Source: a virus. From it: a stretch of 35,189 bases of DNA. A program made the translations under genes and the position numbers. The notes under the pieces were generated by a model. That model was not told the DNA's origin. It searched no databases and saw only the letters and a list, made by a program, of their open reading frames with translations. Within the stretch, counting starts at the first letter, position 1. The number at the start of each line of letters is the position of its first letter. Positions 1,574 through 32,128 of the stretch are shown here, piece by piece. The stretch lies in UHGV virus genome UHGV-0070883. One strand, given 5' to 3'.

Positions 1574-1591
1574 CCCCCCCCCCCCCCCCCC
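1574..1591. repeat. Homopolymeric C18 tract (G18 on the other strand) in the int-repressor intergenic region
   Basis: Seen directly: atac + 18 C + ttttgtcgc. It lies just upstream of a putative TTGTCG-16-TAAATA promoter-like element and a small ORF. Confidence 0.9.
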
Positions 1592-14682: not shown

Positions 14683-14756
14683 CGCAGGGTGGTGAAACGG
14701 TATCACGCGGGGTTCCTGTCCCCGAGTAGGAGGTCCAATTCCTCCCCCTGTAACCA
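14683..14756 (+). tRNA. Phage-encoded tRNA-Arg, anticodon CCU (reads AGG), 74 nt with encoded CCA
   Basis: Manual cloverleaf:
- Acceptor: CGCAGGG/CCCTGTA, with a C1-A72 mismatch and a G2-U71 wobble.
- D arm: U8 and G9, D-stem GTGA/TCAC, D-loop AACGGTA with A14, G18, G19 and A21.
- Anticodon arm: stem CGGGG/CCCCG perfect, loop TTCCTGT with U33 and G37.
- Variable loop: AGTA.
- T arm: T-stem GGAGG/CCTCC perfect, T-loop TCCAATT with T54, C56 and A58 but C55 in place of U.
- 3' end: discriminator A, then CCA. Confidence 0.55.
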
Positions 14757-15006
14757 CCTTTTCTTTCGCTTCCGGCTCAGGTTCAACGCATTAAAAAATA
14801 TCCTCAACGCCCCGAAGCTGGTCGCCCAACAGGAGACCAGAATCAAGGAGCTGGAGACAGACCTAGCCCGGCGAGCCCTGACGGAACAAAGCCGGCAGCC
14901 CAACCGTCCCCAATGGTACGAGTACTGGGACCCGCTGCAGGGTGCCGACTTGAGCACTCTTGTGGAGGCCAGGAATGAAGCCCGGCGGGGAGCCTTTGCC
15001 CGGCAA

Positions 15007-16140
15007 ATGCTGATCTGGGATGAAATCATTTATTCGGACGGGCTTCTGGGCATGCTCTACTCCCGCTTAATCGAAAGCGTCGCCATGCAGGGCTGGAAGA
15101 TTGACGCCGCGGACGCCAGCCCGGAGTCCCAGCGCCAGAAAAACGCCCTGGAAGAATTCTACCACTCCGTCAACGGGCTGCAGCAGTCTTTTGGACAGCT
15201 GGCTTCCGCCATGTTTTATGGATACGCCCACCTCCAATACATCGAGGATTCATGGGGCCGCCGATTTGAATTCATCCCGCAGCGCTATTGGGTGAGGCCG
15301 GGAGTGTTGAACGAGTGGCAGTTCAACCCACAGTGCTATATCGGCGTCGACACCGGGGAAAGCGTGGAAGACGAAACGCTCGTCGTGATGGAACACCAGT
15401 ATCCCATCCTGTTCCCGGCTGCCCGCGCTTCTTTTGAGCGCAACCACGCAAAAATCACGTGGGACAACCACATGGACCGCTACGGAAGCGCCCCGGTCAT
15501 CATCACCGCCCCCAAGGACGCGAGTCCCGCCGTCATGGACGCGCTGGAACGGGCCTGCGAACAGCTTAAATCAGGCGCCTCTATCGTGCTGCCTCCTGAC
15601 TGCAAGGCGGAACCGCTCAAGGCGTCCAACATCAACGAAAACTATTTTCTCTCGCGCATCAACATGGCCGACAAGGACCAGGTGCGTTTTGTGATGGCCG
15701 GAACCCTGACGGTCCTGAACGAATCAGGATCAGGCACGCTGGCCGGGTCCGCCCATACGGACAGCTGGAATGCGGTGGTATCCGCCGTCTGCTCCAAAGT
15801 GGCGGAAGCGTTCAACACCGCCATCAGCCCGCTTATATTGGGAGACGGCGAACCGCTGGCCCGCCTCCACATCACCTTTGACACCGTCCAGACGCCATTG
15901 CAGAAGGCCGAGGAAATCGCCGCCCTTGCGGACGGAGGCGTCCGTCCGGAGAAAACCGAAATCGAAGAAAAGATCGGCATGTCGATCGAGGACGCCAGGG
16001 AGCCCGTGCCGGCGGCGGCAGTCAACAGGGATGGCCCCGCATCCCTCATTCCGCCCGACGCCTACGAACAGCTGCAGCAGATGATTTACGACGGCCTCAT
16101 GAAAGGATTTACCGATGATCAGTTCCAGACAATTCAATGA
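15007..16140 (+). CDS. Portal protein. Coordinates are given from the first in-frame ATG after the tRNA. The track ORF 14689-16140 overlaps the tRNA, and the true start may be a non-canonical codon between 14757 and 15006
   Basis: Large ORF immediately after terL and before the prohead protease/scaffold gene, with a size appropriate for a portal. No motif-level confirmation is possible without tools. Confidence 0.5.
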   Translation: MLIWDEIIYSDGLLGMLYSRLIESVAMQGWKIDAADASPESQRQKNALEEFYHSVNGLQQSFGQLASAMFYGYAHLQYIEDSWGRRFEFIPQRYWVRPGVLNEWQFNPQCYIGVDTGESVEDETLVVMEHQYPILFPAARASFERNHAKITWDNHMDRYGSAPVIITAPKDASPAVMDALERACEQLKSGASIVLPPDCKAEPLKASNINENYFLSRINMADKDQVRFVMAGTLTVLNESGSGTLAGSAHTDSWNAVVSAVCSKVAEAFNTAISPLILGDGEPLARLHITFDTVQTPLQKAEEIAALADGGVRPEKTEIEEKIGMSIEDAREPVPAAAVNRDGPASLIPPDAYEQLQQMIYDGLMKGFTDDQFQTIQ

Positions 16141-22724: not shown

Positions 22725-24662
22725 GTGGATTTCCAGGGCGATCCCGTCGATATGAGCGGCGTCACCCTGCGCGGAGCCGTCCGCCTCAAGACGGGCGTGA
22801 CGGAGTTCGGATTTTCCCGAGACGACGAGGGCAACGGCGTGATTTCCTGGGAGTCGGTGCCTGCGGGCATGTGGTCCTATGACGTTTTCATGGACGACGG
22901 CAGCGAAGAAAGCCCCCTTCTCTACGGTTGCTTTGTTTCTTCCGGCCGGGTAACGCCGGACTTGCCCGGCGAGCAGCAGGCCGTGGCGGGCGCGGTCGTC
23001 GTGCAGCTGCCGGAAGGAAGCGGTTGCGTGCAGGTGGTGCTTGATAATGCGTCCAGCGCCGCCTGGTACGCGGAACAGGCCAAGAAGTACGCGGAGAATT
23101 TTAGCCTGTCCGTCGACGAAGTCACCACTGGGGAACCGGGGACGCCCGCCGCCGCGGAAGCCGTCAAAGGGGAGGCTGCCGGCTCCTATAAGCTCTCCTT
23201 CACCATTCCCCGCGGGGATGTTGGTCCTCAGGGACCGTCAGGCCCGCAGGGTGAACGGGGTGAAACCGGCCCCGAAGGGCCGCAAGGCCCACGCGGCGAA
23301 ACCGGGGAACGTGGACCTCAGGGAGATACGGGCGAGCAGGGACCGAAGGGAGAGACAGGCCCGGCGGGGCCCCAAGGCCCGGAGGGCCCCCAGGGGCCGG
23401 AAGGTCCGGCAGGACCCCAGGGACCACAAGGGGAAAAGGGAGAGCCCGGGACGCTGACGTCCAACGTCGGCGACGTCAACATCGGGGGAGCCCTGACCGC
23501 TGAATCGGCTACTATCAACGGGCCTCTGGTCGTCAACAACCCGGACGGAAGCGGAAGCGCCGGAACCCTGAATCAGATTTACGGAATCACCAGGTTTTAT
23601 CAGTCCGTTGATCTTCGTTCGGGCGGCTGGCTGCGCGGGACATTCATGGTAGAGACCGGCATCCTGAATATTTCCCAGGGCGCCAGCTTCAACTGCGCGG
23701 GGACATCCACGTTTTCAAGCGCCATCAACGCCAATGGAGGCGTCAACATCCCGCTGGCCGTGGGAGCGCCGACCAATGAATCCGGCGTCAACCGCCTGTA
23801 TGCCGCGGGCATGGGAGGCGCAGCCAATGCTTATACGGCGGCGGCTTTCCTGAATACGGACACGCTGACAACTACCGGCACGGCAACGGTGACTAAAACG
23901 GTTCCCTACCAGATGGCCCGCATAGGCATTTCCGCGGGCGCTCACACGACTATTCAGGCCCCTTTTGAAGGCCCCAGTTCCCAATGGAATTATTCTTCCT
24001 GGGCCGGCTTTTCATTTGTCTGGCGGGCCACGGCCGCGGCGAAGATAACGATGGGCATCGGACGGGGGGCGAAAACAATCAGGACAGACCTTACCACCGA
24101 CTCCTACACGATTATTCCGGGCAATGACCTGGCATTTAATTCCGGGGAGATTCTGGACATCACCTTTGACAACGTGCGCGATACGGCGCGCAACGGCTAT
24201 ACGGTGCGCGTGCGTGAAATTTATGCGCTGACGTCCGCCGATGGATGGCAGGTCAAGACGACGACCAGCTTTATCCCGGCGACGCAAAACGAGCCCGTCC
24301 CGTGGACGGTGTGCAAGATTATTTACCAGCAGCAGACGGTTGCCAACAGCAGCGTTTATGAAAACCTGGGAGGCCTCTGGCTGCTGGTCACGGGGGCACA
24401 GACCAACAACCTGTTCAAGATCGCCACCTGCCGGGGCGTCTCCAATTTTGAGACCGGCGTCGGCATTTCCAGGTGGGTGACGGATGTGATCAACACCACC
24501 AGCGGCACGGCTTCCGTTTATGCGGGGCCCGGAGAATATGCCTACTACCAGCCGGGCAATGTGAACCCCCTCTTTTACGGGTTGAACGCAATAGGAACGA
24601 ATGCCGTTGAATCCGAGGCAACCGCCGCTTTTGAAGATATTAACGTGCCGATAGAATCATGA
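22725..24662 (+). CDS. Tail fibre protein with a collagen-like (G-X-Y)n triple-helix region
   Basis: 645 aa, GTG start. Residues about 164-244 are uninterrupted [79 protein letters not shown]. The C-terminal part is a large Gly/Ala/Thr-rich beta-rich domain. Confidence 0.7.
23214..23456 (+). repeat. Collagen-like GXY coding repeat (period 9 nt, about 27 triplets)
   Basis: Seen directly inside the fibre ORF. Confidence 0.8.
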
Positions 24663-25359: not shown

Positions 25360-25611
25360 ATGTGCAAACTCTCCGAAGTGCCGGCGCGTTTCATGGATTT
25401 TGCCAAGGCATCACCCGTGTTTGCCTGCGTCATGCTGTCGCTGGTCATTTGCGGCGCGTCCTGCTGGTACATCGGGGATGTCATGGGACACCATAATGAC
25501 CGGCTGTGTGACCTGATGACCATGCAGACACAGGCCCAGATCGAGACGGCCAAGGCGATTCAGCTGCTTGCCGTCAGAATAGAAAATATAGAAAGGAAAC
25601 TGGAAAGGTGA
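25360..25611 (+). CDS. Lysis-associated membrane protein (83 aa): N-terminal TM helix plus C-terminal coiled coil (i-spanin/Rz-like)
   Basis: PVFACVMLSLVICGASCWYIG is a TM segment. QTQAQIETAKAIQLLAVRIENIERKLE has a heptad pattern. Confidence 0.4.
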   Translation: MCKLSEVPARFMDFAKASPVFACVMLSLVICGASCWYIGDVMGHHNDRLCDLMTMQTQAQIETAKAIQLLAVRIENIERKLER

Positions 25612-26771
25612 TTGCTTCTTATCCCAGACGGTTAAGCTCCCCATGCGCTCTTCCGAGAAAAAAACCTGCCAGTTTCGGATTGCCTTATATGGGCTCAAAA
25701 AATAAGATCGCCGCAGATCTGGTGAATATTTTACCAGAAGGGCCGGTATTTGTTGATCTTTTCGCGGGTGGGTGTGCCATGACTCATGCGGCATTATGGT
25801 CGGGGAAGTGGCCCAGGGTCATCGCCAATGATATTCAGCGGCAATTTCCTGATTTATTTTTTCGTGCGGCAACAGGGCGTTTGACAGATTGTGACCGGAG
25901 GGCTGTTGATCGGGATGAGTTCAACCGCGTGAAAGATCATGATGCGGCGGTCGCCCTCTTATGGTCATTTGGAAATCACGGTGAATGTTATTTATGGAAC
26001 GCAGACCTTGAGCCAGTAAAGTTGGCGGCGCTCCGTATGATCATGTCCGAAAACAGAGAGGACCGTCTGGCCTGGTTTAAAAAATTCATTCAGGGCTTAA
26101 GGGATGCACGGGCTGAATTGAAAAGGAGGAAGGAACAAAGGTCTTCTATTTTGGACCAGATTGACAATATTGAAGAATGGCTCAGAGGTGAGCTGCGCGC
26201 TGCGCTGAAAGCGTCTGGGAAAACTCAAGCGGAGGTAAACCGCCATTTGGGGTCTCAAATGGCGGGTCATTATTTTGGATCCAGCCAATGGGCATTCCCC
26301 ACACGGGAAGAGTTTGAAAAGCTGCGTGAGATTTTGCCAACCTTGCACCCCGTTGATTATTACGGTCAACATCTGCAAAGCCTGGAACGCCTGGAAAGAT
26401 TGGAAAGCCTGGAAAGCCTGGAAAGCTTGGAACGTCTGCAAAGATTGGAAAGCCTGGAAAGCGATGTCTATTTGGATAAGAAATTAACAATTAGCGGGAA
26501 AGATTATACTGAAATAACAATTCCGGAAGGTAGTGTGGTTTATGCCGACCCTCCTTATGAGGGGACGGAAAGATATAAGTCCGGACTTTTTAACCATGAT
26601 CGCTTTTGGGAGTGGTGCCGGACGAGAGATTTTCCGGTATTCATTTCAGAATACAAAGCTCCTTCTGATTTCGTTCCCATATGGGAGAAAGCGAAAACGT
26701 GCCACTTTGCGGCAAATAATAACGCAAAAAAAACGATTGAAAAGCTCTTTGTCCATCAACGGTTTAATTAA
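25608..26771 (+). CDS. DNA adenine methyltransferase, D12 class (Dam family), with an internal in-frame LE(S/R) tandem repeat. The start is uncertain: GTG at 25608 or ATG at 25689
   Basis: N-terminal LPYMGSKNKIAADLVNILPEGPVFVDLFAGGCAM matches the Dam/D12 SAM-binding motif. C-terminal VVYADPPY is the catalytic DPPY motif IV. The gene is lower in GC than its neighbours. Confidence 0.8.
   Translation: MIASYPRRLSSPCALPRKKPASFGLPYMGSKNKIAADLVNILPEGPVFVDLFAGGCAMTHAALWSGKWPRVIANDIQRQFPDLFFRAATGRLTDCDRRAVDRDEFNRVKDHDAAVALLWSFGNHGECYLWNADLEPVKLAALRMIMSENREDRLAWFKKFIQGLRDARAELKRRKEQRSSILDQIDNIEEWLRGELRAALKASGKTQAEVNRHLGSQMAGHYFGSSQWAFPTREEFEKLREILPTLHPVDYYGQHLQSLERLERLESLESLESLERLQRLESLESDVYLDKKLTISGKDYTEITIPEGSVVYADPPYEGTERYKSGLFNHDRFWEWCRTRDFPVFISEYKAPSDFVPIWEKAKTCHFAANNNAKKTIEKLFVHQRFN
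26373..26462 (+). repeat. 9-bp tandem repeat x10 (ctgcaaagc, ctggaacgc, ctggaaaga, ttggaaagc ...) encoding (L-E/Q-S/R)10, in frame inside the Dam methyltransferase
   Basis: Seen directly. Ten contiguous 9-mers with 1-2 substitutions each. Confidence 0.9.
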
Positions 26772-26832: not shown

Positions 26833-27363
26833 ATGAAAATAGCCATTGATATTGGACATTCCAACAACACCGGAGCCCGCGGGAACGGTCTTGAAGAACA
26901 CGCCGTCGCCGTGACGATCGCCGAATGCCTCGCCCCCATGCTGCGGCAGCTGGGGGCCAAGGTGGACGTGATTGACTTTCCGGGCATGAGCAATGCCCAG
27001 GATTTGAACGCCACCATCAAGGCCGCCAATGAAGGCGGCTATGACTTCGGCATCTCACTGCATTGCGACGCTTCCGACAATCCCCAGGCCCATGGGGCCC
27101 ATGTGTGTTTTTACCCGGGCAGCGTCAAGGGCAGCAGGCTGGCCATGTGCATTGCGGAACCTCTTTCCCGCCTGCTTCCCGGCCGGGCCAATACCGTCCA
27201 GTCGCGTCCGGGCCTCGCCGTCCTGAAAAGGACCCGCTGTCCGTGGGTGCTGTGCGAATGCGGATTTATCACCAATCCTGAAAACGCCGCCCTGATGAAG
27301 GACCATCCCGGACGCATTGCCGAATCCATTGCCGAAGGGGTGAAAGACTACCTCAACCAGTAA
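26833..27363 (+). CDS. Endolysin: N-acetylmuramoyl-L-alanine amidase (Amidase_3 family)
   Basis: MKIAIDIGHSNNTGARG...SLHCDAS matches the Amidase_3 IDxGHG and SxHxDA zinc-ligand motifs. Preceded by AAGGAGAA. Confidence 0.8.
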   Translation: MKIAIDIGHSNNTGARGNGLEEHAVAVTIAECLAPMLRQLGAKVDVIDFPGMSNAQDLNATIKAANEGGYDFGISLHCDASDNPQAHGAHVCFYPGSVKGSRLAMCIAEPLSRLLPGRANTVQSRPGLAVLKRTRCPWVLCECGFITNPENAALMKDHPGRIAESIAEGVKDYLNQ

Positions 27364-31663: not shown

Positions 31664-32128
31664 ATGAATAATTATTACGTCGCTTCCGACTCAAACAATG
31701 CTGAGGGGCCTTACTCTTTTGAAGAACTAGAAGCCATGTTCAAAGAAGGGAAAATCTTCTCCGAAACGCTTGTTTGCCCTGAAGGGGGGCAAGAGTGGTT
31801 TTCTTTTGGAAGTGTGTATAATCATTACAGAGAAGAAATGCTATTAGAGAAAAAACAAGAACTGAATAAGCAACTGGAAACACAAAAAAGCGATGCAGAA
31901 CTTTTTCTAGAACTTTTTCTAGAACTTTTCCGAACAGTTGAAGATATATTTCGTTTTGTAGGCATAATTGCCCTAATTGCTGGATTTATATTGTTTTGGA
32001 ACAACCTGACAGAAAGGCAACCCGAAATAGGCCTTATTTACTTGGTTTCCGGGGCCTTCTCCTGCCTCGTCTGCTTCTGGTTTGCGAAGGTTCTGACATT
32101 GCTTCAAAAGATCGCCGACAAGAAATAA
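31664..32128 (+). CDS. GYF_2 (DUF4339)-like N-terminal domain membrane protein (154 aa), low GC; candidate moron
   Basis: NNYYVASDSNNAEGPYSFEELEAMFKEGKIFSETLVCPEGGQEWFSF matches the GYF_2 pattern (..YY.. GP.s.eEl......G.i...tlVw.eGm.eW.p). Two C-terminal TM helices. Markedly AT-rich compared with the neighbours. Confidence 0.5.
   Translation: MNNYYVASDSNNAEGPYSFEELEAMFKEGKIFSETLVCPEGGQEWFSFGSVYNHYREEMLLEKKQELNKQLETQKSDAELFLELFLELFRTVEDIFRFVGIIALIAGFILFWNNLTERQPEIGLIYLVSGAFSCLVCFWFAKVLTLLQKIADKK
31898..31931 (+). repeat. 12-nt tandem repeat (ctttttctagaa x2.6) encoding ELFLELFLELF
   Basis: Seen directly inside the GYF_2 gene. Confidence 0.8.

What the first reader, a model, noticed from the sequence alone, without database searches (positions are those of the whole stretch)
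26373..26462. In-frame 9-bp x10 tandem repeat (VNTR) between the SAM-binding and DPPY domains of the Dam-family methyltransferase
Ten contiguous 9-nt units (ctggaaagc-like) encode LQSLERLERLESLESLESLERLQRLESLES, exactly where the target-recognition region of a D12 methyltransferase lies. Trinucleotide-multiple repeats can expand or contract without frameshifting. This is the mechanism behind phase- or specificity-variable methyltransferases (phasevarions), and behind spacer-length switching in type I/III R-M specificity subunits. A repeat-length-variable Dam-like methyltransferase on a prophage would be an epigenetic switch candidate. Changing the linker length between domains could alter activity or site preference. 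I am not aware of this feature in canonical Dam enzymes.
Basis: seen in the sequence. Interest (0 to 1): 0.7.

Follow-up and report, generated by a model that had tools for sequence, protein, structure and literature searches.

The report
Variable leucine repeat in phage methyltransferase
The 9-base repeat is real and codes for a "leucine at every third residue" segment that a large group of phage DNA adenine methyltransferases carry at the same spot; its length changes very fast between near-identical phages, but nothing shows that it works as an on/off or specificity switch.

Summary
Observation confirmed. Positions 26373-26462 hold ten in-frame 9-bp units (consensus CTGGAAAGC) coding LQSLERLERLESLESLESLERLQRLESLES. 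They lie in a 387-aa D12/Dam-like methyltransferase of an Akkermansia muciniphila prophage, after the TRD-like insert and before strand beta3 and DPPY.

The repeat is not a private insertion. An array of L-[EQ]-[SRQ] units, or at least hydrophobic-x-x units, sits at this site in nearly all relatives examined. These span Akkermansia, Alistipes, Bacteroidales, Clostridia and marine viruses, and cultured Lactococcus and Leuconostoc phages. Unit numbers range from 3 to 29.

Length changes fast. Three sister Akkermansia prophages differ by at most 1 substitution in about 5.1 kb, yet carry 6, 7 and 12 units. The window's own allele is fixed at 10 units in all 15 listed members of its 20-member 90% cluster, seen on about 140 contigs.

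The phasevarion reading is not supported. A 9-bp unit cannot frameshift, and the gene is an orphan late phage gene next to the endolysin. Lactococcal relatives with 8 and 20 units are reported to methylate CCAG and CYAG. That argues against spacer-length switching.

Best reading: a length-tolerant, slippage-prone structural segment of unknown fold. I found no description of it in the literature.

The parts
25608..26771 (+). Orphan D12 / Dam-like (alpha-group) N6-adenine DNA methyltransferase gene, 387 aa from GTG 25608. Database annotation (P0001) starts at ATG 25689 and gives 360 aa.
25677..25706 (+). Conserved N-terminal motif GLPYMGSKNK (residues 24-33). G29, S30 and K31 are invariant in the family.
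   Evidence: Alignment A1; coordinates.
25749..25778 (+). AdoMet-binding motif I, FVDLFAGGCA (residues 48-57).
   Evidence: Invariant D50, G54, G55, C56, A57. Aligns with T4 Dam FVDLFCGG.
26055..26216 (+). Long predicted helix (residues 150-203) leading out of the core into the insert.
   Evidence: AlphaFold2 model: H150-203, pLDDT about 80-90.
26217..26342 (+). Small helical, HTH-like insert (residues 204-245, GKTQAEVNRHLG...HYFG.SQW.FPT). It is absent from the shorter (~320 aa) family members.
   Evidence: AF2 helices 207-214, 219-223, 233-242. Weak local Foldseek matches to HTH_XRE/Cro-C1 proteins. One source names a homologue 'XRE-family HTH'. Short homologues lack it but keep the array.
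26373..26462 (+). The finding: ten in-frame 9-bp units coding (L-[EQ]-[SR])x10, residues 256-285.
   Evidence: Predicted helical, with pLDDT falling from about 79 to about 40 along the array.
26395..26417 (+). First copy of a 23-nt perfect direct repeat inside the array (AAAGATTGGAAAGCCTGGAAAGC). It is a potential substrate for a 45-bp (5-unit) deletion or duplication.
26440..26462 (+). Second copy of the 23-nt perfect direct repeat, 45 nt downstream of the first.
26484..26495 (+). Predicted strand beta3 (LTIS, residues 293-296) that follows the array. It is part of the conserved 'DYxxIxIP' block.
   Evidence: AF2 E293-296. Aligns with T4 Dam 'KIIFSS'.
26547..26558 (+). Catalytic motif IV, DPPY (residues 314-317).

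Best explanation
The 9-bp array encodes a length-tolerant structural segment with leucine at every third residue and polar E/Q and S/R between. It sits where the polypeptide returns from the DNA-reading (TRD-like) insert into the catalytic Rossmann core of a phage-borne orphan Dam-like m6A methyltransferase.

Shown:
- The segment is an ancient hallmark of a large clade of phage and prophage alpha-group methyltransferases.
- Its amino-acid pattern is under purifying selection.
- In lineages where its codons are homogeneous it behaves as an in-frame VNTR. Units are lost or gained between identical 9-bp units far faster than point substitutions accumulate.

Inferred:
- The mutational mechanism is replication slippage or recombination between direct repeats.
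- The segment is mostly helical and projects from the body of the enzyme as a spacer or arm.
- A few units are needed to form the helix that leads into beta3. Extra units are largely tolerated.
- Length variation is therefore mainly a by-product of the repetitive DNA. At most it is a quantitative modifier of the enzyme, not an ON/OFF or recognition-spacer switch.
- In the window's prophage the enzyme is expected to be made late, with the lysis genes, to methylate progeny DNA.
For: Family trait:
- All 120 best homologues carry the array at the same site, 3-25 units.
- About 50 of 56 usable loci from bacterial and viral contigs carry it, down to 24-32% identity.
- About 130 of 147 representatives of 50%-identity clusters have at least 5 hydrophobic-x-x units 30-60 aa before DPPY. 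534 clusters match at E<=1e-30.
- Cultured Lactococcus, Leuconostoc and Lau218 phages have it too.
- Of 113 context-free DNA matches to four consensus units in IMG/VR, about 108 lie in this gene family.

Selection on the peptide:
- Position 2 is E/Q in 96% of units and position 3 is S/R in 95%. Other one-step neighbours (D, V, T, C, I) are rare.
- Non-repetitive arrays such as phiMH1 and Lau218 keep the period-3 hydrophobic pattern.

Turnover:
- Codons are homogeneous within an array but differ between lineages: CTG, CTC or TTG/TTA for Leu.
- Codon use inside arrays differs sharply from the rest of the same genes. Ser is AGY in 98% inside versus 51% outside; Leu is CTG in 69% versus 27%.

Speed:
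- L064, L069 and L067 have 6, 7 and 12 units. They show 0 mismatches in the other 1089 nt of the gene, 0 in 2 kb upstream and at most 1 in 2 kb downstream.
- Each allele was seen on 5-20 contigs.
- The alleles differ by clean loss of whole units between identical units.
- Many Alistipes-type pairs have 100% identical flanks but different unit numbers.

Position:
- The array end aligns with the helix before beta3 of T4 Dam.
- An array-less relative, Vibrio phage phiV208, has only a short helix there.

Structure:
- AF2 predicts helix pieces whose confidence is good at both ends and poor in the middle, in both the 10-unit and an 18-unit protein.

Tolerance and function:
- phi15 (8 units) and phi145 (20 units) are about 90% identical elsewhere. 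They are reported to give CC(6mA)G and CY(6mA)G (PMC4190342).

Context:
- The gene lies in an integrase-terminase-portal-fibre-endolysin prophage. Its start overlaps the upstream ORF, and the endolysin follows immediately. Sister prophages share this synteny.
Against: - No experiment addresses the array. 'Tolerated spacer' is an inference from natural variation.
- The deep conservation of the pattern, and the similar typical length (about 8-15 units) even in non-repetitive versions, suggest a more specific role than a passive linker.
- A hydrophobic period of exactly 3.0 fits no canonical amphipathic helix or coiled coil (PMC4786415). Some lineages have Gly or Asn at position 3, which is unfavourable for a long helix. 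AF2 confidence is low, so the fold is unresolved.
- The window's own allele is invariant in all 15 listed members of its 20-member cluster, seen on about 140 contigs, even though those sequences differ by point substitutions. This does not fit simple, uniform hypermutability.
- CCAG versus CYAG is a small difference in specificity that coincides with array length. The motif assignment for Phi93/Phi145 was by similarity only, not by cloning.
- Many variant alleles come from short-read metagenome assemblies, which can mis-assemble repeats. The cultured-phage genomes and repeated independent recovery reduce this concern.
Confidence: 0.5

Rival explanations
1. Tuner of specificity or stringency. 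The array sets the distance or flexibility between the DNA-reading insert and the catalytic pocket. Changing the unit number would then alter which sequences are methylated, or how strictly. A phage population would gain a fast-evolving dial to escape host restriction systems.
For: - The array sits at the TRD/catalytic junction.
- Its length is the fastest-changing character of the locus.
- The long-array lactococcal enzyme is credited with the more relaxed motif: CYAG for the 20-unit M.Phi145II against CCAG for the 8-unit M.Phi15I.
- There is a precedent in Type I HsdS, where one extra TAEL repeat changes GAAN6RTCG to GAAN7RTCG (PMC7383803).
Against: - The motif core is the same short contiguous tetranucleotide despite a 12-unit difference, so there is no ruler effect.
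- The two enzymes also differ at about 10% of other residues.
- The Phi93/Phi145 motif assignment is indirect.
- Unit numbers show no preferred phase, such as multiples of 6 units (18 residues, 5 helical turns) that a rigid helical ruler would favour.
- No methylome data exist for the Akkermansia alleles.
Confidence: 0.17
2. Oligomerisation or docking rod. The leucine ridge mediates self-association or binding to another phage or host protein. Length would then matter little beyond a minimum.
For: - One third of the residues are Leu in an otherwise polar, near-neutral segment. Such a segment is unlikely to stay solvent-exposed as a monomer.
- AF2, run on a monomer, cannot place the middle of the array.
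- The pattern is conserved even without DNA repetition.
Against: - A period of 3.0 lies outside the range of known coiled coils (PMC4786415).
- There is no i to i+4 Glu-Arg enrichment.
- Alpha-group Dam-like enzymes are generally described as working as monomers (my own knowledge, not checked here).
- The array occurs only in this enzyme family and not in other proteins of the same phages, so no partner is indicated.
Confidence: 0.15
3. The DNA matters, not the peptide. The conserved 9-bp unit would serve as a recombination hotspot that shuffles N- and C-terminal halves between alleles. Alternatively it would act as a cluster of binding or methylation sites.
For: - The unit DNA (CTG-SAA-AGK) is conserved beyond what the peptide requires.
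- P0090 and P0112 look like mosaics with a junction inside the array.
- CTGG, the complement of CCAG, occurs in every L-E unit of the window's array (seen in the sequence).
Against: - Different lineages use different codons for the same peptide pattern: CTC, TTG/TTA, GAG, CAA/CGA.
- Non-repetitive arrays keep only the amino-acid periodicity.
- The mosaics are single short-read contigs and could be chimeric assemblies.
- N- and C-half distances are strongly correlated overall (r = 0.89).
- Lactococcal arrays contain no CCAG or CTAG.
Confidence: 0.07
4. Phasevarion-type ON/OFF epigenetic switch.
For: It is a repeat tract inside a methyltransferase gene, and its length is variable.
Against: - The unit is 9 bp, so every expansion or contraction keeps the frame. 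All alleles seen differ by whole units.
- The gene is an orphan phage late gene, not a mod or hsdS gene.
- The one out-of-frame copy (L008) is shifted upstream of the array.
Confidence: 0.02
5. The apparent polymorphism is an assembly artefact, and the array is in fact fixed.
For: Many alleles come from short-read metagenome assemblies. Some variants sit on 1-2 kb contigs.
Against: - Identical alleles were recovered from independent samples and assemblers (L063 = L064).
- Alleles were seen on 5-20 contigs each.
- Arrays of up to 12 units are shorter than one read.
- Finished genomes of cultured Lactococcus phages show 6-20 units.
Confidence: 0.03

Closest known systems
M.Phi15I / M.Phi93II / M.Phi145II, the 'replication-module' orphan alpha-group N6-adenine methyltransferases of lactococcal 936-type (Skunavirus) phages (Murphy et al. 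2014, PMC4190342)
   Same: They share the same clade architecture: GLPYxGSK, FGGGG, SFGN, then a period-3 array L-[EQ]-[QR] encoded by 9-bp units, then beta3 and DPPY. All are orphan phage enzymes. Array length is polymorphic between isolates, 6-20 units.
   Different: They are only about 25% identical to the window protein and lack the HTH-like insert. They lie in the early/replication module next to sav, not next to the endolysin. Position 3 is Q/R instead of S/R. The paper assigns CCAG/CYAG motifs but removed the array from its alignment and does not mention it.
Canonical Dam-family enzymes with solved structures (T4 Dam 1q0s/1yfj, E. coli Dam 2ore/2g1p, DpnM 2dpm)
   Different: They have no repeat array, no long helix and no HTH-like insert. 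The window protein scores far below the NCBIfam 'dam' cut-off, 42.6 against 114.85. The target sequence of the window enzyme is unknown.
[quoted passage not shown]
   Same: An in-frame short tandem repeat in a helical connector of a DNA-modification protein, with the number of units differing between alleles (PMC7383803).
   Different: In HsdS the repeat separates two TRDs, and one extra unit changes the spacer of a bipartite site from N6 to N7. Here there is a single-chain enzyme with one reading region. The characterised relatives recognise a contiguous 4-bp motif whether they have 8 or 20 units.
Phasevarions (phase-variable Type III mod and Type I hsd genes with simple sequence repeats)
   Same: A hypermutable repeat tract inside a methyltransferase gene (PMC2667262 and PMC7383803, listed).
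   Different: Phasevarion repeats cause frameshifts that switch expression ON and OFF in bacterial host-adapted pathogens. Here the unit is 9 bp, expression is never interrupted, and the gene belongs to a phage.
SDS22-like / internalin leucine-rich repeats
   Same: They contain local runs of LxxLxxLxxL. A peptide search of the PDB returns them as the only resemblance.
   Different: There is no LxLxxN core and no 20-30-residue super-period. The HMMER per-domain scores are insignificant and driven by composition.

Membership tests
D12 class N6-adenine DNA methyltransferase (Pfam PF02086), alpha group | Profile match above the curated cut-off | tested here: met
   54.2 bits against a cut-off of 22, in two stretches (N- and C-terminal).
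D12 class N6-adenine DNA methyltransferase (Pfam PF02086), alpha group | Motif I (FxGxG) N-terminal, motif IV (DPPY) C-terminal, variable/TRD region between them | tested here: met
   FAGGCA at residues 52-57 and DPPY at 314-317, with about 190 residues of insert plus array between them.
D12 class N6-adenine DNA methyltransferase (Pfam PF02086), alpha group | Dam-like fold | tested here: met
D12 class N6-adenine DNA methyltransferase (Pfam PF02086), alpha group | N6-adenine methylation of a defined DNA motif | not testable with these tools
   No methylome data for this enzyme. Distant relatives are credited with CCAG/CYAG (PMC4190342).
Orthodox Dam (NCBIfam TIGR00571, GATC-specific) | Score at or above the subfamily cut-off | tested here: not met
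   42.6 bits against a cut-off of 114.85.
Array-bearing phage alpha-methyltransferase clade (includes M.Phi15I / M.Phi145II) | GLPYxGSK, FxGG, SFGN, then a run of hydrophobic-x-x units immediately before beta3 and DPPY | tested here: met
   All elements are present in the window protein and in relatives down to about 24% identity.
In-frame intragenic VNTR | Head-to-tail units whose length is a multiple of 3, at least 3 copies, more than chance | tested here: met
   Ten 9-bp units; 0 matches in 100 shuffles.
In-frame intragenic VNTR | Copy-number polymorphism between otherwise near-identical sequences | tested here: met
   Met in sister lineages: 6/7/12 units with at most 1 substitution in about 5.1 kb. 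Cultured Lactococcus phages have 6-20 units. Not seen in the window's own 90% cluster: all 15 listed of 20 members carry 10 units.
Phasevarion | Repeat-number change shifts the reading frame or promoter spacing and switches the methyltransferase ON/OFF | tested here: not met
   The unit is 9 bp and lies inside the ORF. All alleles differ by whole units and stay in frame.
Phasevarion | The gene is a Type III mod or Type I hsdS/hsdM of a bacterial R-M locus | tested here: not met
   It is a D12 orphan enzyme in a prophage late region between a small ORF and the endolysin. The adjacent ORFs checked showed no res or hsd genes.
Phasevarion | Switching changes expression of a regulon | not testable with these tools
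   Needs methylome and transcriptome data.
HsdS-type spacer-length switch (EcoR124I/II) | The repeat lies in the connector between two target-recognition domains | tested here: not met
   This is a single-chain enzyme with one TRD-like region. The array links that region to the catalytic core.
HsdS-type spacer-length switch (EcoR124I/II) | Unit number sets the spacer of a bipartite recognition sequence | tested here: inconclusive
   Only indirect evidence: relatives with 8 and 20 units are credited with contiguous CCAG and CYAG. That argues against it, but the window enzyme itself is untested.
Canonical alpha-helical coiled coil | Hydrophobic periodicity of about 3.5-3.8 residues | tested here: not met
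   The periodicity is exactly 3.0. PMC4786415 places 3.0 outside the accessible range.
Leucine-rich repeat | LxxLxLxxN/C core repeated every 20-30 residues | tested here: not met
   The period is strictly 3 residues, with no LxL step and no Asn ladder. PDB matches to SDS22 and internalin are compositional only.

The most novel reading that the evidence does not exclude
The period-3 leucine array is a new kind of adjustable protein element. By slipping in 9-bp steps it changes how strictly, how processively or in what oligomeric state a phage orphan methyltransferase marks DNA. One hint is the relaxation from CCAG to CYAG with a longer array. Phage populations would thereby carry a fast-evolving, never-off dial on their protective methylation. 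This mechanism would differ from frameshift phase variation and from HsdS spacer switching.
Probability: 0.15. Interest if true: 0.8.

Novelty: new variant of a known kind. Interest (0 to 1): 0.52.

Why it matters
In-frame repeat variation is known to change the behaviour of some restriction-modification proteins. It has not, as far as I could find, been described for single-chain Dam-like enzymes.

Here an entire widespread clade of phage methyltransferases keeps a "leucine every third residue" segment at one structural junction. The clade runs from dairy phages to gut prophages of Akkermansia and Alistipes to marine viruses. In many lineages this segment is the fastest-changing part of the locus.

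If length affects activity or site choice, it would be a new route by which phages diversify anti-restriction methylation. It would also be a variable to record when linking methylation motifs to genes in metagenomes.

If length is neutral, the array is still useful in two ways. It is a natural high-resolution strain marker for these phages. It is also an unexplained protein sequence pattern (hydrophobic period 3.0) whose fold is worth solving. The question can be tested directly with cultured Lactococcus phages.

Tried and rejected
- Literature. Full-text searches found no description of the array. I searched for the peptide strings (LESLESLES, LQSLQSLQS and others; 0 papers) and for combinations of methyltransferase, tandem repeat, Dam and phage terms.
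- Structure. Two AlphaFold2 runs (10-unit window protein and 18-unit P0003) gave confident cores. In both, the middle of the array had only pLDDT about 40-50 and was broken into helix pieces. The fold of the array remains open.
- PDB search with a 60-aa array peptide. It returned SDS22, internalin and ANP32 LRR proteins. The domain scores were insignificant and biased by composition, so I rejected LRR membership.
- Helix test. I looked for Glu(i)-Arg(i+4) pairing between neighbouring units and found none (odds ratio 1.03). E and R are instead associated within the same unit (odds ratio 2.4), which favours neutral LER and LQS units. The sequences are not independent, so this is descriptive only.
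- Rigid-ruler test. Unit numbers show no preference for multiples of 6 units (18 residues, 5 helical turns).
- Repeat purity as the cause of stability. The window's invariant array is not less perfect than the polymorphic sister arrays: its longest self-match is 17 nt at a 9-nt shift, and it holds a 23-nt repeat at 45 nt. Purity does not explain why this allele is fixed.
- Recombination hotspot idea. N- and C-half distances correlate (r = 0.89). Two apparent mosaics (P0090, P0112) were found but cannot be told apart from chimeric assemblies.
- The module in other proteins. Six-frame scans of all fetched loci, and a context-free DNA scan of IMG/VR, found the array almost only in this methyltransferase. 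The exceptions were L160/L181, L175 and L183, which are unrelated low-complexity sequence.
- I repeated the analysis with a pairwise aligner.
Full report
1. THE OBSERVATION

Tandem Repeats Finder reports one array at 26373-26462: period 9, 10.0 copies, 77% matches, no indels, consensus CTGGAAAGC. The units are CTGCAAAGC CTGGAACGC CTGGAAAGA TTGGAAAGC CTGGAAAGC CTGGAAAGC TTGGAACGT CTGCAAAGA TTGGAAAGC CTGGAAAGC. A two-unit degenerate pattern matches nine times in the window, all inside the array, and never in 100 shuffles.

The array lies in frame in ORF 25608-26771 (+). It codes for LQSLERLERLESLESLESLERLQRLESLES, residues 256-285.

2. THE GENE AND ITS SETTING

The ORF is a D12-class N6-adenine DNA methyltransferase.
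- Pfam PF02086 scores 54.2 bits against a cut-off of 22, and phrog_56 also matches.
- Motif I (FAGGCA) lies at residues 52-57 and DPPY at 314-317.
- It is not an orthodox Dam: NCBIfam TIGR00571 scores 42.6 against a cut-off of 114.85.

Between the two halves of the Rossmann fold the model shows four elements in order: a 54-residue helix (150-203), a small HTH-like helical unit (204-245), the array, and strand beta3 (293-296). Evidence for the HTH-like unit is weak: Foldseek matches to XRE/Cro proteins and one source's name for a homologue.

A profile search of PDB sequences aligns the last units of the array with the short helix that precedes beta3 in T4 Dam. The array therefore sits where the chain returns from the DNA-reading insert to the catalytic core.

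The window is a prophage or phage. It has an integrase (144-1340), large terminase, portal, a collagen-like fibre (22725-24662) and an Amidase_3 endolysin (26833-27363) directly after the methyltransferase.

The exact protein is annotated in Akkermansia muciniphila as WP_283938652.1. A 27-kb IMG/VR contig carries it at 100% identity (L012).

The GTG at 25608 overlaps the stop codon of the upstream 83-aa ORF (GTGA). This start also preserves the conserved FGLPY that every homologue has before GSKNK. The database start at ATG 25689 is therefore probably too short.

3. THE ARRAY IS A FAMILY TRAIT

- All 120 best homologues, down to about 40% identity, carry L-[EQ]-[SR] units at the same place, 3 to 25 of them.
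- So do most loci fetched from bacterial genomes (Bacteroidales, Prevotellaceae, Clostridia, Erysipelotrichaceae, Lentisphaeria) and from viral contigs. This includes environmental viruses at 24-32% identity, where position 3 is Q/R.
- Shorter members (~320 aa) lack the HTH-like insert but keep the array, so the array is the older feature.
- An exhaustive HMMER search finds 534 clusters (50% identity) at E<=1e-30. About 130 of the 147 representatives inspected have at least five consecutive hydrophobic-x-x units 30-60 residues before DPPY. Many of these are degenerate and non-repetitive.
- Cultured phages have it too: Lactococcus Skunavirus (936 group), Leuconostoc LDG and phiMH1, and the marine podophage Lau218. 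In Leuconostoc LDG the gene lies directly upstream of the lysin.
- An array-less relative, Vibrio phage phiV208, has only a short helix there.
- A context-free scan of IMG/VR for four consensus DNA units gave 113 loci, of which about 108 lie in this gene family.
- Within the fetched loci the array never occurs in another gene.

4. SELECTION AND TURNOVER

Across 113 distinct arrays, position 2 is E or Q in 96% of units and position 3 is S or R in 95%. Other amino acids one mutation away are rare. The peptide pattern is therefore under purifying selection.

At the DNA level each array is homogeneous, while lineages differ.
- Leu is CTG in Bacteroidales and Akkermansia, CTC in Clostridia, TTG/TTA elsewhere, and CTT or TTA in dairy phages.
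- Position 3 toggles between codons one step apart: AGT/AGG, AGC/CGC/AGA, or CAA/CGA.
- Codon use inside arrays differs sharply from the rest of the same genes. Ser is AGY in 98% inside versus 51% outside, Leu is CTG in 69% versus 27%, and Arg is AGG in 61% versus 16%.

This is what repeated gain, loss and conversion of units (concerted evolution) would produce.

5. LENGTH POLYMORPHISM

In a sister Akkermansia prophage lineage with the same gene order, three copies from different samples carry 6, 7 and 12 units.
- They show no mismatch in the other 1089 nt of the gene.
- They show none in 2 kb upstream and at most one in 2 kb downstream.
- The shorter arrays are the longer one minus whole units between identical units.
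- Each allele was recovered on 5-20 contigs, and the 6-unit allele was recovered identically from two archives.

A second Akkermansia cluster has alleles of 6, 10, 12, 14 and 18 units in otherwise identical proteins. Alistipes-type proteins with 100% identical flanks differ by up to 9 units. Finished genomes of cultured Lactococcus phages have 6, 8, 10, 12, 13, 14 and 20 units.

By contrast, the window's own 90% cluster shows no variation. It has 20 members, of which 15 are listed. These are 14 distinct sequences that differ by point substitutions and were seen on about 140 contigs, and all carry exactly the same 10 units. The nearest different allele (P0002, about 4% nucleotide divergence) has 3 units.

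The window array is not less perfect than the unstable ones. It even contains a 23-nt perfect repeat 45 nt apart, at 26395-26417 and 26440-26462. I have no explanation for its stability. A recent clonal spread of this prophage is the simplest guess.

6. WHAT THE SEGMENT MIGHT BE

AlphaFold2 predicts helix for the array in the 10-unit protein and in an 18-unit homologue. In both, confidence is acceptable only for the first 2-4 units and the last unit. It drops to about 40-50 in between, and the helix is broken into pieces.

A hydrophobic period of exactly 3.0 residues fits no canonical amphipathic helix. It also lies outside the range accessible to coiled coils (PMC4786415). Some lineages have Gly or Asn at position 3.

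The only PDB resemblance is a compositional one to SDS22 and internalin LRRs, without their defining LxLxxN core. The fold is unresolved.

What can be said is that the ends are anchored in the body of the enzyme and the middle is not placed by the model. The enzyme evidently tolerates 3 to 29 units.

7. FUNCTION

The gene has no restriction partner next to it, overlaps the preceding small ORF, and precedes the endolysin. It is therefore an orphan phage enzyme. It presumably methylates progeny DNA late in infection; this timing is an inference from gene position.

ON/OFF switching is excluded because a 9-bp unit cannot shift the frame.

For specificity switching there is one piece of outside evidence. 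Murphy et al. (PMC4190342) found a single motif, CC(6mA)G, on phage Phi15 and credited it to M.Phi15I. They found CY(6mA)G on Phi93 and Phi145 and credited it to M.Phi93II/M.Phi145II by similarity. Their alignment figure removed "55 aa from mtPhi145-2/mtPhi93-2 and 15 aa from mtPhi15-1" without comment.

Reading the genomes shows what that removed stretch is. It is the array: 8 units in phi15 and 20 in phi145, in proteins about 90% identical elsewhere. A 12-unit difference thus leaves a short contiguous motif essentially unchanged. This argues against a ruler or spacer mechanism of the EcoR124I/II kind (PMC7383803). The slight relaxation from C to Y keeps a tuning role possible, but it is unproven.

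8. VERDICT

The best explanation (confidence about 0.5) is a conserved, length-tolerant structural segment at the TRD-to-core junction. Its repetitive coding DNA makes it an in-frame VNTR, and length variation is mostly tolerated.

Rivals are a tuner of stringency or activity (0.17), an oligomerisation or docking rod (0.15), a DNA-level role (0.07), an assembly artefact (0.03) and an ON/OFF switch (0.02).

I found no description of this array in the searchable literature, although the enzymes themselves are known in dairy phages. I rate it a new variant of a known kind, namely in-frame repeat variation in DNA-modification proteins. It is of moderate interest and can be tested directly with cultured Lactococcus phages.

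Noticed in passing
window 25608-25692: The database annotation of this protein (P0001, 360 aa) starts at ATG 25689. That start cuts off the conserved FGLPY that all homologues have before GSKNK. GTG 25608 overlaps the stop of the upstream 83-aa ORF by 4 nt (GTGA), as in the sister prophages, and is the more likely start.
   Followed up: partly
window 1574-1591: A run of 18 C in the non-coding stretch after the integrase gene (144-1340). It could be a slippage-prone tract near the lysogeny control region.
   Followed up: no
window 14683-14756: ARAGORN predicts a tRNA-Arg (anticodon CCT) overlapping the start of the portal ORF (14689-16140). I did not check whether it is real or a false positive.
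   Followed up: no
L121 (IMGVR_UViG_3300045988_167937), 700-aa ORF around the array: A family member carries an insertion of about 330 aa between 'VVYC' and 'CDPPYENT', with LAGLIDADG-like motifs (LLGIFLTDGS, IIDGDGD). It looks like an intein sitting exactly at the catalytic DPPY motif. The related copy L100 has lost the beta3-DPPY segment and is frameshifted.
   Followed up: partly
L065 3398-3643 (sister Akkermansia prophage): An extra 81-aa ORF with a weak Pfam hit to Acb2_Tad1_hairpin (an anti-defence sponge family) lies upstream of the 83-aa ORF and the methyltransferase. I did not check whether the window has an equivalent.
   Followed up: no
proteins P0090 and P0112 (Alistipes-type homologues): Both look like mosaics of two diverged alleles. 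In P0090 the N-half and the start of the array equal P0069, and the rest equals P0114, with the junction inside the array. This is either recombination at the shared repeat or a chimeric short-read assembly.
   Followed up: partly
L008 (Treponema sp. MAG, CP091737.1): In this copy of the gene the array is read out of frame (KVWKVCKV...) because of a shift upstream of it. It is either a pseudogene or a sequencing error.
   Followed up: no
window 26373-26462, bottom strand: Every L-E unit (CTGGAA) contains CTGG, the complement of CCAG, which is the motif credited to the distant lactococcal relatives. The window array holds 8 such sites. The lactococcal arrays themselves contain none, so this may be coincidence.
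   Followed up: no
window 22725-24662: The putative tail fibre has a collagen-like G-x-y region with its own 9/18/27-bp tandem repeats (23357-23431). Its length differs between sister prophages: 645 aa here against 628 aa and 563 aa.
   Followed up: no
window 31897-31929: A perfect 12-bp tandem repeat (AGAACTTTTTCT, 2.8 copies) inside or near ORF 31664-32128.
   Followed up: no
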